From NCBI RefSeq assembly GCF_013315695.1, contig NZ_CP054353.1: a stretch of 64,000 bases of DNA, one strand, 5' to 3'. Below are positions 1 to 15,370 of the stretch, piece after piece. A program made the position numbers and the translations under genes. Within the stretch, counting starts at the first letter, position 1. Every line of letters starts with the position of its first letter. This stretch comes from Escherichia coli. Its GTDB lineage: Bacteria > Pseudomonadota > Gammaproteobacteria > Enterobacterales > Enterobacteriaceae. Under the pieces are notes generated by a model. That model was not told the origin of the DNA, did not search any database, and saw only the letters and a program-made list of their open reading frames with translations.

Positions 1-826
1 CCGCGGAGAAGCCGATGAAGGAGCCGAAGGTTGCCAGATACAGCAGGCTCATAATCCACAGATGACCCCGTTTGAGTACCGGCAACTGCTCCTTGATGGA
101 GGCTTTCGAGGTAGCAAGATCGTTCATGCCAAACCACGCTGCAATGGTGAAGATGGCAAGGAACGGCACCCATACCCAGGACGCATTCGCCAGATACAGC
201 TCAGTCCCATCCGGCTGTTTGACACCCTGGCTACCAAATACTGCGAAAATCGACAGTGATACCACCAGCGGAGCAACCAACTGCATGACGCTGACGCCCA
301 TGTTGCCCAGACCACCATTCAGACCCAACGCGCCACCCTGCTTCTGTTTCGGAAAGAAGAAGCTGATGTTTGCCATACTGGATGCGAAGTTCGCGCCAGC
401 AAAGCCGCACAGCAGAGAGATGATGATGAAGACGCTATAAGGCGTGGAGGTATCCTGCACGGCAAAACCCAGCCAGACGCAAGGAATAATCAGAATACCG
501 GTGCTGAACGCCGTCCAGCGACGACCACCGAAGATAGGAACCATAAAGGAGTATGGAACACGTAATAACGCGCCAGAAACCGAAGGCAGCGCAGTCAACA
601 TAAATAGCTGATCGGTCGTAAAATTAAAACCGACTTTCGGTAAGTTCACCGCAACAGCGCTGAACAACATCCATACGCAAAACGCCAGCAGCAGACAGGG
701 AACGGAAATCCACAGGTTGCGGCTGGCAATACGTTGACCGCGTTGTTGCCAGAACGCAGGATCTTCCGGTCGCCAATCTGTAATGACAGCTCCAGTAGCC
801 CTTTCGGGGGCGGATGAGTGACTCAT
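1..826 (-). CDS. narK: Nitrate/nitrite transporter NarK, N-terminal ~275 codons; 3' end lies beyond window start
   Basis: Reverse-strand translation from ATG at 824-826 gives MSHSSAPERATGAVITDWRPEDPAFWQQRGQ..., an MFS transporter matching NarK; divergent from narX. Confidence 0.9.
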   Translation of the reverse strand, partial: MSHSSAPERATGAVITDWRPEDPAFWQQRGQRIASRNLWISVPCLLLAFCVWMLFSAVAVNLPKVGFNFTTDQLFMLTALPSVSGALLRVPYSFMVPIFGGRRWTAFSTGILIIPCVWLGFAVQDTSTPYSVFIIISLLCGFAGANFASSMANISFFFPKQKQGGALGLNGGLGNMGVSVMQLVAPLVVSLSIFAVFGSQGVKQPDGTELYLANASWVWVPFLAIFTIAAWFGMNDLATSKASIKEQLPVLKRGHLWIMSLLYLATFGSFIGFSA

Positions 827-885
827 AGACACCTCTGATACTCGTTTCGATGTCTGCCACCTTAGTGTCTGTAGCTAAAGGCAAT

Positions 886-899
886 TTGATGTAAATCAA
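886..899. promoter_or_regulatory. FNR-type site TTGAT-GTAA-ATCAA, perfect inverted repeat, in narK promoter
   Basis: Exact match to FNR consensus TTGAT-N4-ATCAA; centre ~66 bp upstream of narK start codon. Confidence 0.6.
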
Positions 900-923
900 A
901 CGATAAGATAACTTTATCTATCA

Positions 924-937
924 TTGATATTTATCAT
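924..937. promoter_or_regulatory. Second FNR-like site TTGAT-ATTT-ATCAT
   Basis: Near-consensus half sites; centre 38 bp from the first site, matching the spacing expected for two FNR sites at the narK promoter. Confidence 0.45.
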
Positions 938-1164
938 TACCCATAGTGAGTACAGTGATTTCATAAAAATTATGAGATTTTTCACGGTGCTGTAAAATCC
1001 CTCCCCTTACCGATGTAAAGCGACTAACCACGCGGCAAATAAGGAGTAACTCTTTCCGGGTATGGGTATACTTCAGCCAATAGCCGAGAATACTGCCATT
1101 CCAGAATGTATCGTCACATTCATTAAGGTTATTGCTCATTTAAAGCCTGAAGGAAGAGGTTTAC

Positions 1165-2961
1165 ATGCTTACACGTTGTCTCTCTCCGCTCACCCTGGTT
1201 AATCAGGTTGCGCTTATTGTGTTGCTTTCTACTGCTATTGGACTGGCAGGGATGGCAGTTTCTGGCTGGCTAGTGCAAGGAGTTCAGGGCAGCGCCCATG
1301 CGATCAACAAAGCGGGATCGCTGCGCATGCAAAGTTACCGTCTGTTGGCGGCAGTGCCATTAAGCGAGAAAGACAAGCCCTTAATTAAAGAAATGGAACA
1401 AACGGCATTTAGCGCCGAGTTGACTCGAGCAGCGGAACGAGACGGACAACTGGCGCAATTACAGGGTTTACAAGATTACTGGCGTAATGAACTGATCCCT
1501 GCGCTGATGCGTGCACAAAACCGCGAAACGGTGTCAGCGGATGTCAGCCAGTTTGTTGCCGGGCTTGATCAGCTGGTATCTGGTTTTGACCGCACCACGG
1601 AAATGCGCATTGAGACAGTGGTACTGGTCCATCGGGTAATGGCGGTATTTATGGCACTTTTACTGGTGTTCACTATTATCTGGTTGCGGGCGCGACTGCT
1701 ACAACCGTGGCGGCAACTGCTGGCAATGGCGAGTGCCGTCAGCCATCGCGATTTTACCCAACGCGCAAACATCAGCGGGCGCAACGAAATGGCGATGCTT
1801 GGAACTGCATTGAACAATATGTCTGCAGAACTGGCCGAAAGTTATGCCGTACTTGAGCAGCGGGTTCAGGAGAAAACTGCCGGGCTGGAGCATAAAAATC
1901 AGATCCTCTCTTTTTTATGGCAGGCTAACCGCCGTTTGCATTCCCGCGCCCCGCTGTGTGAACGCCTGTCACCGGTACTCAACGGCTTACAGAATTTAAC
2001 CCTGCTACGTGATATCGAACTGCGGGTGTATGACACTGATGATGAAGAGAATCATCAGGAGTTTACCTGCCAGCCAGATATGACTTGTGATGATAAAGGC
2101 TGCCAGCTCTGCCCGCGCGGCATATTACCCGTTGGCGATCGCGGCACAACCCTGAAGTGGCGGCTGGCTGACTCTCATACGCAGTACGGTATTTTGCTGG
2201 CGACCCTGCCGCAGGGGCGTCATCTTAGCCATGATCAACAACAACTGGTGGATACCCTGGTTGAACAACTCACCGCCACGCTGGCGCTGGATCGGCATCA
2301 GGAACGTCAGCAACAGTTGATCGTGATGGAAGAGCGTGCCACCATTGCGCGCGAACTGCATGATTCTATTGCCCAATCTCTCTCTTGCATGAAGATGCAG
2401 GTGAGTTGTTTACAGATGCAGGGCGATGCGCTGCCAGAAAGCAGCCGCGAACTGTTAAGTCAGATCCGTAACGAACTGAATGCATCCTGGGCGCAGTTGC
2501 GTGAATTGCTCACTACATTCCGCTTGCAGCTCACCGAGCCTGGATTACGTCCGGCGCTGGAGGCGAGTTGCGAAGAGTACAGCGCCAAATTTGGCTTCCC
2601 GGTGAAGCTGGATTATCAATTGCCGCCTCGTCTGGTGCCTTCGCATCAGGCAATCCACTTGTTGCAAATTGCCCGTGAGGCATTAAGTAACGCCCTCAAA
2701 CATTCGCAAGCGAGTGAGGTCGTGGTGACGGTGGCGCAAAACGATAATCAGGTCAAACTGACCGTCCAGGATAACGGCTGCGGCGTGCCTGAAAATGCCA
2801 TCCGCAGCAATCACTACGGCATGATAATAATGCGCGACCGTGCGCAAAGTTTACGAGGCGATTGCCGCGTCCGCCGTCGTGAATCAGGTGGCACCGAAGT
2901 GGTTGTCACCTTTATTCCCGAAAAAACTTTCACAGACGTCCAAGGAGATACCCATGAGTAA
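1165..2961 (+). CDS. narX: Nitrate/nitrite sensor histidine kinase NarX
   Basis: 598-aa ORF with N-terminal transmembrane segments, HAMP region and histidine kinase domain; stop overlaps narL start. Confidence 0.95.
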
Positions 2962-3604
2962 TCAGGAACCGGCTACTATCCTGCTGATCGACGATCACCC
3001 GATGCTGCGAACTGGCGTAAAACAGCTTATCAGTATGGCACCAGATATCACCGTGGTTGGCGAAGCGAGTAATGGCGAACAGGGTATTGAACTGGCGGAA
3101 TCTCTTGATCCCGATCTGATCCTGTTAGATCTCAATATGCCCGGCATGAATGGTCTGGAAACGCTGGATAAACTCCGCGAAAAGTCCCTCTCAGGGCGCA
3201 TTGTGGTATTCAGCGTCTCTAACCATGAAGAAGATGTGGTCACCGCACTGAAACGCGGCGCGGATGGCTATCTGTTAAAAGATATGGAACCGGAAGATCT
3301 GCTGAAAGCGTTACATCAGGCAGCTGCTGGCGAAATGGTATTAAGCGAAGCATTAACGCCTGTTCTGGCCGCCAGCTTGCGCGCAAACCGTGCCACTACT
3401 GAGCGCGACGTTAACCAGTTAACCCCACGCGAGCGCGATATTCTCAAGCTGATTGCCCAGGGTTTGCCGAACAAGATGATTGCCCGCCGCCTGGATATCA
3501 CCGAAAGCACAGTAAAAGTGCACGTCAAGCACATGCTGAAGAAAATGAAGCTCAAGTCTCGCGTGGAAGCTGCGGTATGGGTGCATCAGGAGCGCATTTT
3601 CTGA
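2954..3604 (+). CDS. narL: Nitrate/nitrite response regulator NarL
   Basis: 216 aa from ATG 2954, [25 protein letters not shown], receiver plus LuxR-type HTH; the longer track ORF from 2840 is rejected. Confidence 0.95.

Positions 3605-14678: not shown

Positions 14679-15370
<692 letters not shown>

What the first reader, a model, noticed from the sequence alone, without database searches (positions are those of the whole stretch)
827..1164. Divergent narK-narX control region with two FNR-type sites 38 bp apart
A perfect TTGAT-GTAA-ATCAA (886-899) and a near-consensus TTGAT-ATTT-ATCAT (924-937) lie upstream of narK, together with a TACCCAT heptamer (938-944) resembling a NarL site. This is consistent with anaerobic and nitrate co-regulation of narK and gives a testable operator layout.
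Basis: partly seen in the sequence, partly recalled or inferred. Interest (0 to 1): 0.25.

Follow-up and report, generated by a model that had tools for sequence, protein, structure and literature searches.

The report
Known E. coli narK promoter region
This is the long-studied stretch between the E. coli genes narK and narX, where the oxygen sensor FNR and the nitrate regulator NarL switch on a nitrate transporter.

Summary
All three motifs are at the stated coordinates, and the flanking genes are narK (- strand, ATG at 826) and narX (+ strand, ATG at 1165) of a non-K-12 E. coli.

- **Site 886-899.** This perfect site is the published narK FNR site at -41.5 (class II), bound in ChIP-seq. It is perfect in all 81 enterobacterial narK-narX spacers I collected.
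- **Heptamer 938-944.** TACCCAT is one of ten database-listed NarL heptamers for narK, attributed to published in vitro NarL-DNA binding work. It pairs with TACTCAC (946-952).
- **Site 924-937.** This second site falls at -79.5 and is letter-for-letter the known hlyE FNR/CRP site, also in this window at 53105-53118. It is found only in E. coli and E. albertii. It overlaps a NarL heptamer and the -35 region of weakly supported narX transcription starts (954, 963). The FNR ChIP-seq study counts one FNR site here. Its role is unresolved.

Verdict: already known, with anaerobic (FNR) and nitrate (NarL) co-activation of narK. Low interest. The only open point is what the Escherichia-specific -79.5 site does.

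The parts
1..826 (-). 5' part of narK (nitrate/nitrite transporter); ATG at 826-824. The window cuts off the rest.
   Evidence: Translation begins MSHSSAPERATGAVITDWRPEDPAFW. Annotated narK in the 100%-identical E. coli MS 21-1 record.
831..836 (-). narK ribosome-binding site (AGAGGT in narK sense), within the conserved ATCAGAGGTGTCT just before the ATG.
   Evidence: Conserved block in the alignment of 23 genera. Role inferred from sequence and position.
851..851 (-). Inferred narK transcription start (+1), 41.5 bp from the centre of FNR site 1; 25-nt leader.
   Evidence: Position computed from the published -41.5 assignment (PMC3688515 Table 1) and the motif coordinate 1277107, which maps to window 899. 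Not mapped here.
859..864 (-). -10-like hexamer TAAGGT of the narK promoter; no good -35, as expected for a class II activator-dependent promoter.
   Evidence: CTAAgGT is conserved at fixed distance from FNR site 1. Role inferred.
886..899 (.). FNR site 1, TTGATGTAAATCAA (perfect), centre 892.5 = -41.5 for narK.
   Evidence: Perfect in 81 of 81 enterobacterial spacers. PWM score 17.06, ChIP-bound, listed at -41.5 (PMC3688515).
915..921 (+). NarL heptamer TATCTAT (ATAGATA in narK sense), 1 mismatch to TACYYMT; -70 to -64.
   Evidence: Listed for narK (b1223) in the supplement of PMC2718512.
924..937 (.). FNR-type site 2, TTGATATTTATCAT (1 mismatch), centre 930.5. This is -79.5 for narK and -32.5 or -23.5 for the reported narX starts.
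   Evidence: Present only in E. coli and E. albertii. Identical 14-mer to the hlyE FNR/CRP site. Function not established.
928..934 (+). NarL heptamer TATTTAT (ATAAATA in narK sense), lying inside FNR-type site 2; -83 to -77.
   Evidence: Listed for narK in the supplement of PMC2718512.
938..944 (+).
   Evidence: Listed for narK in the supplement of PMC2718512. Only the GG core is conserved outside Escherichia.
946..952 (-). NarL heptamer TACTCAC, -101 to -95. It forms an inverted pair with 938-944 across a 1-bp spacer in Escherichia.
   Evidence: At most 1 mismatch at this position in 79 of 81 loci. Pair analysis. Listed for narK in PMC2718512.
954..963 (+). Two reported narX transcription starts (window 954 and 963). 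-10-like CATAGT 942-947 and TACAGT 951-956 sit 7 nt upstream of each.
   Evidence: Kim et al. 2012 Table S1: K-12 positions 1277052 (2 reads, 5' UTR 211) and 1277043 (3 reads, 5' UTR 202), with matching upstream sequence. Low read support.
965..985 (-). Conserved block GTGAAAAAtCtCA plus a T-run (-134 to -114), between the distal and proximal NarL heptamers. Candidate site for a DNA-bending protein (IHF or Fis).
   Evidence: Conserved. IHF ChIP-chip signal is noted at this spacer in PMC3688515. No convincing IHF consensus was found, so the role is inferred.
1008..1014 (+). NarL heptamer TACCGAT (ATCGGTA in narK sense), -163 to -157.
   Evidence: Listed in PMC2718512. Not conserved outside Escherichia.
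1025..1031 (+). Database-listed NarL heptamer TAACCAC (GTGGTTA in narK sense).
   Evidence: Listed in PMC2718512 and read. Not conserved outside Escherichia.
1042..1048 (-). Distal NarL heptamer TACTCCT (perfect), -197 to -191.
   Evidence: A TACYYMT-type heptamer in every aligned genus (perfect in all but Leclercia's TACCCAC), with changes confined to the degenerate positions apart from that one. Listed in PMC2718512.
1062..1068 (-). Distal NarL heptamer TACCCAT (perfect), -217 to -211, inside the invariant block GTATACCCATACC (1071-1059).
   Evidence: 13 invariant columns across 23 genera. Listed in PMC2718512.
1165..2961 (+). narX (nitrate sensor kinase), followed by narL at 2954-3604.
   Evidence: ORF list. 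Annotation of the identical E. coli record.

Best explanation
Window 827-1164 is the E. coli narK-narX divergent control region, and it works as the literature describes.

- **Anaerobic control.** [4Fe-4S]-FNR binds the perfect site at 886-899, centred 41.5 bp upstream of the narK start (window 851, - strand). From there it recruits RNA polymerase to a promoter with a weak -10 (TAAGGT) and no usable -35. This is class II activation.
- **Nitrate control.** NarX (or NarQ) phosphorylates NarL when nitrate is present. NarL-P binds TACYYMT heptamers in two clusters. The distal cluster is at -217 and -197. NarL-P raises FNR-dependent transcription further.
- **Geometry.** The conserved block at -134 to -114 between the clusters probably binds a DNA-bending protein that brings the distal NarL sites towards the promoter, as at narG.
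- **Second FNR-type site.** The site at -79.5 is an Escherichia-specific addition embedded in the proximal NarL cluster. It is at most an accessory element.

**Shown:** the sequence, its position, its conservation, and published ChIP and database records. **Inferred:** the bending step, any role of site 2, and how NarL and FNR interact.
For: - **Motifs and genes.** They are as stated.
- **Published record.** There is an FNR ChIP-seq peak on narX/narK, a top site at -41.5, and narK in the directly activated category. The narK expression ratio in the paper's supplementary expression table is 0.068, though the table heading was not retrieved, so which strains or conditions are compared is not confirmed (PMC3688515).
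- **NarL sites.** Ten NarL heptamers are listed for narK, attributed to published in vitro NarL-DNA binding work (PMC2718512). All ten are located in this window, one of them altered by a SNP.
- **Reviews and relatives.** A review states direct FNR and NarL control of narK (PMC8139620). Salmonella narK and NarS need FNR and NarL (PMC7038943).
- **Phylogenetic footprint.** The 81 loci were collected through a coding-sequence pattern in narX, so the spacer did not bias the sample. FNR site 1 is perfect in 81 of 81. TACTCAC has at most 1 mismatch in 79 of 81. The distal heptamers, the -10-like element and the ribosome-binding site all sit in conserved blocks.
- **Chance.** Chance is excluded for the ensemble.
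Against: - No experiment can be run here. The narK start was not mapped in the data I could read (narK is silent in the aerobic TSS set of Kim 2012).
- The primary papers (Bonnefoy & DeMoss 1992; Kolesnikow et al. 1992; Li, Kustu & Stewart 1994) were not retrievable. Details of their mutational and binding results rest on secondary sources or on my memory.
- No clear IHF consensus was found at -125.
- In E. coli the proximal inverted heptamer pair has a 1-bp spacer, not the canonical 2-bp spacer.
Confidence: 0.92

Rival explanations
1. Site 2 (924-937) is a working second FNR site for narK. An FNR dimer at -79.5 acts in tandem with the dimer at -41.5, adding to or tuning activation, possibly through contact with NarL bound next to it.
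For: - It has one mismatch to the consensus.
- The identical 14-mer is described as the FNR/CRP site of the hlyE promoter (PMC2156107), which lies in this same window at 53105-53118 upstream of hlyE.
- The FNR ChIP-seq peak centre (K-12 1277080-82) maps to window 924-926, on top of site 2.
- The 61-bp stretch around it is at least 99% identical (in effect letter-identical at this length) in 4380 of 5417 E. coli records.
- From memory, unverified: curated databases list an FNR site at -79.5 for narK.
Against: - At the threshold of at most 1 mismatch, it occurs only in E. coli and E. albertii among 81 species. It has 2 mismatches in the Escherichia E69 lineage and no match at that position in Escherichia sp. 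MOD1. Nothing within 2 mismatches was found at that position in the Salmonella, Citrobacter, Klebsiella-group and other loci.
- Salmonella narK is still induced about 3,300-fold by anaerobic shock (PMC7038943). That study used a different Salmonella strain from my locus.
- Myers et al. count one FNR site at narK, and the 14-mer is absent from their high-scoring motif list.
- Peak-to-motif offsets of about 40 bp occur at other promoters for which the table lists one high-scoring motif (ycgF, fnrS; figures). The peak position therefore does not discriminate.
- From memory (Wing et al. 1995), -79.5 is not one of the helical-face positions from which FNR activates.
Confidence: 0.3
2. Site 2 has no FNR function. 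It is a chance near-match created in an A/T-rich stretch whose real job is to bind NarL (heptamers TATTTAT and TATCTAT) and nucleoid proteins.
For: - Given a functional first site, a second site with at most 1 mismatch is expected in about 2.7% of spacers of this composition. That is not rare across hundreds of FNR promoters.
- A database-listed NarL heptamer (928-934) lies inside it, and others flank it.
- It is not conserved, whereas every element with an established role is.
- The ChIP-seq study counts one site.
Against: - The exact sequence is reported to bind FNR at hlyE.
- It is stable within E. coli.
Confidence: 0.35
3. Site 2 and the adjacent heptamers (938-952) serve mainly as an operator for the divergent narX promoter. 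FNR and/or NarL-P bound there overlap the narX -35 to -10 region and modulate narXL transcription (autoregulation).
For: - Genome-wide TSS profiling reports narX starts at K-12 1277043 and 1277052, which map to window 963 and 954. Each has a -10-like hexamer exactly 7 nt upstream (TACAGT 951-956, CATAGT 942-947).
- Relative to these starts, site 2 is centred at -32.5 or -23.5, and the heptamers lie between -35 and -10.
- The sigma-70 ChIP-chip peak at 1277023 (window about 983) lies on the narX side of the narK start.
Against: - The starts rest on only 3 and 2 reads.
- The -35 matches are poor.
- No FNR effect on narX appears in the data I read (narX occurs only as a spacer label).
- ChIP-chip resolution is coarse.
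- A 202-nt narX leader carrying the distal NarL sites would be unusual.
- Other genera have a much shorter narX-proximal segment, so the arrangement may not be general.
Confidence: 0.2

Closest known systems
E. coli K-12 narK promoter (narKp) as recorded in the literature and in RegulonDB/EcoCyc
   Same: It is the same locus. The FNR site TTGATTTACATCAA at -41.5 is identical. Nine of the ten listed NarL heptamers are identical.
   Different: There are strain-level SNPs only. A-to-C at window 1003 turns the K-12 heptamer TACCCTT into TCCCCTT. Two further flanking differences lie outside heptamers (one search compared).
narGHJI promoter of E. coli (FNR at -41.5, a distal NarL cluster near -200, IHF near -125)
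   Same: - Both have a class II FNR site at -41.5.
- Both have distal perfect NarL heptamers about 200 bp upstream, here at -217 and -197.
- Both have a conserved block around -125 in between.
- Both are NarL-dependent.
   Different: - narK also has a proximal NarL cluster at -101 to -64 and the extra FNR-type site at -79.5.
- IHF binding at the narK block was not demonstrated here.
hlyE (clyA) promoter FNR/CRP site
   Same: It has the identical 14-mer TTGATATTTATCAT.
   Different: - At hlyE the site is centred at -61.5, a class I position, and is the only activator site.
- At narK it would be a second, upstream site at -79.5.
- In Myers et al. the hlyE peak appears only in the hns/stpA mutant.
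Promoters with a 7-2-7 NarL/NarP site next to FNR (nirB, nrfA, napF, fdnG)
   Same: An inverted pair of TACYYMT heptamers lies upstream of an FNR site. In many non-Escherichia genera the narK pair reads as 7-2-7 with 1-2 mismatches.
   Different: In E. coli the pair TACTCAC-T-ATGGGTA has a 1-bp spacer. The strict 7-2-7 reading has at least 3 mismatches.
Natural and synthetic tandem-FNR promoters (ndh, yfiD; the Barnard et al. 2003 constructs). Recalled from memory, not checked here.
   Same: There is a second FNR-type site upstream of a promoter-proximal one.
   Different: In those cases the upstream site has a demonstrated, often repressive, effect at specific spacings. For narK no effect of the -79.5 site could be verified.

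Membership tests
Class II FNR-activated promoter | Inverted repeat matching TTGAT-N4-ATCAA | tested here: met
   886-899 matches 10 of 10 specified bases and is perfect in 81 of 81 orthologous spacers.
Class II FNR-activated promoter | Site centred near -41.5 relative to the transcription start, overlapping the -35 region | tested here: inconclusive
   - No TSS data for narK were available to me.
- The published table gives -41.5.
- The geometry fits: the conserved -10-like TAAGGT at 864-859 lies 28.5 to 33.5 bp from the site centre.
Class II FNR-activated promoter | FNR occupancy in vivo and FNR-dependent expression | not testable with these tools
   Literature only. There is a ChIP-seq peak at the narX/narK spacer, narK is in the directly activated category, and its supplementary-table expression ratio is 0.068 (PMC3688515).
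NarL-regulated promoter | TACYYMT heptamers in the control region, more than chance | tested here: met
   There are 3 perfect and 11 one-mismatch heptamers in 338 bp. The density of perfect matches is 8.9 per kb against 0.70 per kb in the window. Simulated P(at least 3 perfect) = 0.014.
NarL-regulated promoter | NarL-P protection of these heptamers in vitro | not testable with these tools
   Secondary source only. PMC2718512 lists ten narK heptamers attributed to Li, Kustu & Stewart 1994. The primary paper was not retrievable.
NarL/NarP 7-2-7 site | Two inverted heptamers separated by exactly 2 bp | tested here: not met
   - In the window the best pair is TACTCAC-T-ATGGGTA, with a 1-bp spacer and 1 mismatch.
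- The 7-2-7 reading is poor in Escherichia.
- Over 81 loci the 7-2-7 reading has 1-2 mismatches in 45, mostly other genera.
Tandem-FNR promoter (two functional FNR sites) | A second FNR-consensus site upstream | tested here: met
   924-937 has 1 mismatch and is centred at -79.5.
Tandem-FNR promoter (two functional FNR sites) | The second site is occupied or functional and evolutionarily maintained | tested here: inconclusive
   - It is not conserved beyond E. coli and E. albertii.
- The ChIP-seq study counts one site, and the peak position cannot resolve 38 bp.
- The identical sequence is an FNR/CRP site at hlyE.

The most novel reading that the evidence does not exclude
The FNR-type site at -79.5 and the 1-bp-spaced heptamer pair are an Escherichia-specific rewiring of the shared spacer. 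They sit on the -35 to -10 region of a narX promoter (starts at window 954 and 963). FNR and NarL-P would then feed back on narXL transcription while activating narK from the same DNA. This coupling would be absent in Salmonella, Citrobacter and Klebsiella.
Probability: 0.15. Interest if true: 0.3.

Novelty: already known. Interest (0 to 1): 0.08.

Why it matters
It matters little as a discovery.

The re-analysis does give a clean phylogenetic footprint. It separates the universally conserved elements from E. coli-specific ones.

- **Conserved:** the FNR site at -41.5, the distal NarL heptamers at -217 and -197, the heptamer at -101, and the block at -134 to -114.
- **E. coli-specific:** the -79.5 FNR-type site, and the heptamers at -163 and -70.

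It also shows that the -79.5 site overlaps reported narX transcription starts. That is a small, testable question about autoregulation of the nitrate sensor.

Tried and rejected
- **Primary papers.** Kolesnikow 1992, Bonnefoy & DeMoss 1992, Darwin & Stewart 1995 and Kang 2005 are not held. What they say about a -79.5 site could not be checked. Text searches for '79.5' and for the site-2 sequence found nothing on narK.\n- **ChIP-seq peak position.** I tried to use it to decide between sites 1 and 2. The peak maps onto site 2 (window 924-926). However, offsets of up to about 42 bp occur at promoters for which the same table lists one high-scoring motif, so I dropped it as evidence.\n- **IHF consensus scan (WATCAANNNNTTR).** The only 1-mismatch hit overlaps the ATCAA half of FNR site 1, and nothing convincing lies at the conserved block at -134 to -114.\n- **Known RNA families.** There are no Rfam matches in 1-3000 even at E-value up to 1.\n- **Sigma-70 consensus scan.** It gives one hit, TTTACA-16-CATAAT at 996..969 on the narK strand, no more than shuffles give. 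It is not conserved outside Escherichia, so I rejected it as the main narK promoter.\n- **ORFs in the spacer.** The ORFs at 921-1139 and 624-899 on the - strand are unannotated, and the region is full of indels between genera. I did not treat them as genes.\n- **Klebsiella TSS data.** A comparison for narX/narK was not possible because the stored supplement is cut.

Full report
**Observation**

The sequence at the stated coordinates is as described: TTGATGTAAATCAA at 886-899, TTGATATTTATCAT at 924-937 and TACCCAT at 938-944. The spacer 827-1164 (338 bp, 38.8% G+C) lies between a - strand ORF starting at 826 and a + strand ORF starting at 1165.

It is 100% identical to E. coli strain MS 21-1, where the neighbours are annotated narG, narK, narX, narL and ychO. 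It occurs in 5415 of 5426 complete E. coli genomes at 95-100% identity.

The motifs are more than chance.
- The whole 64-kb window has five matches to TTGAT-N4-ATCAA with at most one mismatch, against 2.87 in shuffles.
- In 200,000 Markov simulations with the spacer's own composition, a perfect site appeared in 0.09% of cases. A perfect site plus a second near-perfect site appeared in 0.0015%.
- Taken alone, a second site with at most one mismatch is expected in about 2.7% of such spacers. Site 2 is therefore far less secure than site 1.

**What is already on record**

- Myers et al. 2013 (PMC3688515) list narK among operons directly activated by FNR. They give one FNR site, top-scoring at -41.5, and cite Bonnefoy & DeMoss 1992 for regulation.
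- Their supplement gives the motif TTGATTTACATCAA starting at K-12 coordinate 1277107 with score 17.06. It is ChIP-bound, with an IHF ChIP-chip signal at the same spacer.
- I used narX ATG = 1276841 = window 1165 as the tie point. Its centre at 892.5 puts the narK start at window 851.
- The supplement of PMC2718512 reproduces the RegulonDB/CoryneRegNet NarL sites for narK (b1223), attributed to the in vitro NarL-DNA binding study of Li, Kustu & Stewart 1994. The list is ATAGATA, ATAAATA, ATGGGTA, TACTCAC, CACTGTA (judged spurious by that paper), AAGGGTA, ATCGGTA, GTGGTTA, TACTCCT and TACCCAT.
- All ten can be placed in the window.
- A recent review states that narK transcription is under direct FNR and NarL control (PMC8139620).

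**Phylogenetic footprint**

I scanned one genome per species for a degenerate DNA pattern encoding the NarX P-box. This is coding sequence, so the spacer did not bias the sample. The scan returned 120 loci. Of these, 103 have narK and narX divergent, and in 81 both protein alignments start at residue 1.

Conserved elements:
- FNR site 1 is perfect in 81 of 81, from Escherichia to Pectobacterium, Rahnella, Dickeya and Serratia.
- In a 23-genus alignment and an ungapped profile anchored on site 1, the other conserved elements in narK promoter coordinates are:
  - the ribosome-binding site;
  - a -10-like CTAAgGT;
  - the flanks of site 1;
  - TACTCAC at -101 to -95, with at most 1 mismatch in 79 of 81;
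  - a block GTGAAAAACCACA plus a T-run at -134 to -114;
  - TACTCCT at -197 to -191, which varies only at the degenerate Y/M positions apart from a terminal T-to-C in Leclercia;
  - an invariant GTATACCCATACC containing TACCCAT at -217 to -211;
  - a TATTCTC block further upstream.

This is the same overall architecture as narG: FNR at -41.5, a distal NarL cluster near -200, and something conserved near -125.

**The second FNR-type site**

With site 1 at -41.5, site 2 is centred exactly at -79.5.

Among the 81 loci, a site with at most 1 mismatch occurs there only in E. coli (three records) and E. albertii. It has 2 mismatches in the E69 lineage and is degenerate in Escherichia sp. MOD1. It is absent in Salmonella, Citrobacter, Pseudescherichia, Leclercia, Enterobacter, Raoultella, Kosakonia and the rest.

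Evidence in favour of binding competence:
- The identical 14-mer occurs at 53105-53118 in this window, between umuD and hlyE.
- There it is the described FNR/CRP site of the hlyE promoter, -69 TTTGATATTTATCATA -54 (PMC2156107).

Evidence against a required role:
- Myers et al. count a single site.
- The 14-mer is not in their high-scoring list.
- Salmonella, which lacks the site in the locus I recovered, still induces narK several thousand-fold in an FNR- and NarL-dependent way (PMC7038943).

The ChIP-seq peak centre (1277080-82, window 924-926) falls on site 2. However, offsets of 40 bp occur in the same table at promoters for which it lists one high-scoring motif, so this is not informative.

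Site 2 contains the listed NarL heptamer TATTTAT (928-934) and abuts TACCCAT (938-944). FNR and NarL binding there would interact, or the FNR resemblance may be incidental.

TACCCAT (938-944) and TACTCAC (946-952, - strand) form an inverted pair with a 1-bp spacer in Escherichia, with 1 mismatch in 14. In most other genera the orthologous pair reads best with the canonical 2-bp spacer, and 45 of 81 loci have 1-2 mismatches in the 7-2-7 reading.

**The narX side**

Kim et al. 2012 (PMC3415461, Table S1) report two narX starts in K-12, at 1277043 (3 reads, 202-nt leader) and 1277052 (2 reads, 211-nt leader). The printed upstream sequences match window 913-963 and 904-954.
- These starts map to window 963 and 954 on the + strand.
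- Each has a -10-like hexamer ending 7 nt upstream (TACAGT 951-956, CATAGT 942-947).
- Relative to them, site 2 is centred at -32.5 or -23.5, and the 938-952 heptamers lie in the promoter spacer.
- The support is thin because of the very low read counts and poor -35 matches.

It does make the region a true back-to-back divergent promoter pair about 100 bp apart. It also raises the testable possibility that the Escherichia-specific elements act on narX.

**Mechanism, with what is shown and what is inferred**

- Shown by sequence, conservation and cited ChIP/database records: FNR at -41.5, and NarL heptamers in proximal and distal clusters.
- Established knowledge of the family: FNR at -41.5 activates by direct contact with RNA polymerase (class II). 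NarL-P is produced by NarX/NarQ in response to nitrate.
- Inferred: the -134 to -114 block binds a bending protein, and site 2 is accessory or incidental.
- Recalled from memory and not verified here:
  - IHF and Fis dependence of narK (Kolesnikow et al. 1992).
  - A database-listed FNR site at -79.5.
  - The helical-phase rules of Wing et al. 1995.
  - The tandem-FNR results of Barnard et al. 2003.

**Verdict**

The feature is already known. Interest is low. The residual question is the role, if any, of the lineage-specific -79.5 site.

Noticed in passing
window 53105-53118: The identical 14-mer TTGATATTTATCAT lies between umuD (52454-52873, - strand) and hlyE (MTEIVADKTVE...). It is the published FNR/CRP site of the hlyE promoter (-69 to -54).
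   Followed up: yes
window 954 and 963 (+ strand): A published genome-wide TSS set places two weak narX starts here (2 and 3 reads). They give 211- and 202-nt leaders that would contain the distal NarL heptamers. FNR-type site 2 and the 938-952 heptamers then overlap the narX core promoter.
   Followed up: partly
window 996..969 (- strand): A sigma-70-like TTTACA-16-CATAAT lies on the narK strand about 110 bp upstream of the main narK start. It is Escherichia-specific and no more than shuffles give. A sigma-70 ChIP-chip peak in K-12 (1277023) maps to about window 983.
   Followed up: partly
window 1003: This strain has C where K-12 has A. That changes the database-listed NarL heptamer TACCCTT (AAGGGTA in narK sense) to TCCCCTT. 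This heptamer is not conserved in other genera either.
   Followed up: partly
window 1059-1071 and 1086-1092: A 13-bp block GTATACCCATACC is invariant in all 23 aligned genera, which is more than one 7-bp NarL heptamer needs. A conserved TATTCTC lies about 15 bp further towards narX. In most genera narX starts only about 35-45 bp beyond it, so it may belong to a narX promoter or to another factor's site.
   Followed up: no
window 1093-1164: The narX-proximal part of the spacer aligns only among Escherichia, Salmonella and Citrobacter. Other genera have a shorter, unrelated segment, so spacer length ranges from about 300 to 420 bp.
   Followed up: no
window 938-952 and orthologous positions in L002-L120: The inverted NarL heptamer pair has a 1-bp spacer in Escherichia but reads as a canonical 7-2-7 site in many other genera. 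This might bear on NarP responsiveness of narK outside E. coli.
   Followed up: partly
window 14893-14906: Another one-mismatch FNR-type match, TTAATCAGTATCAA, lies just inside the 5' part of lolB next to divergent hemA. The FNR ChIP-seq study lists a lolB/hemA peak in K-12.
   Followed up: no
E. coli genome collection: 13 of the 5421 matches to the narK-narX spacer are on records labelled as plasmids, and some genomes have up to 3 copies.
   Followed up: no
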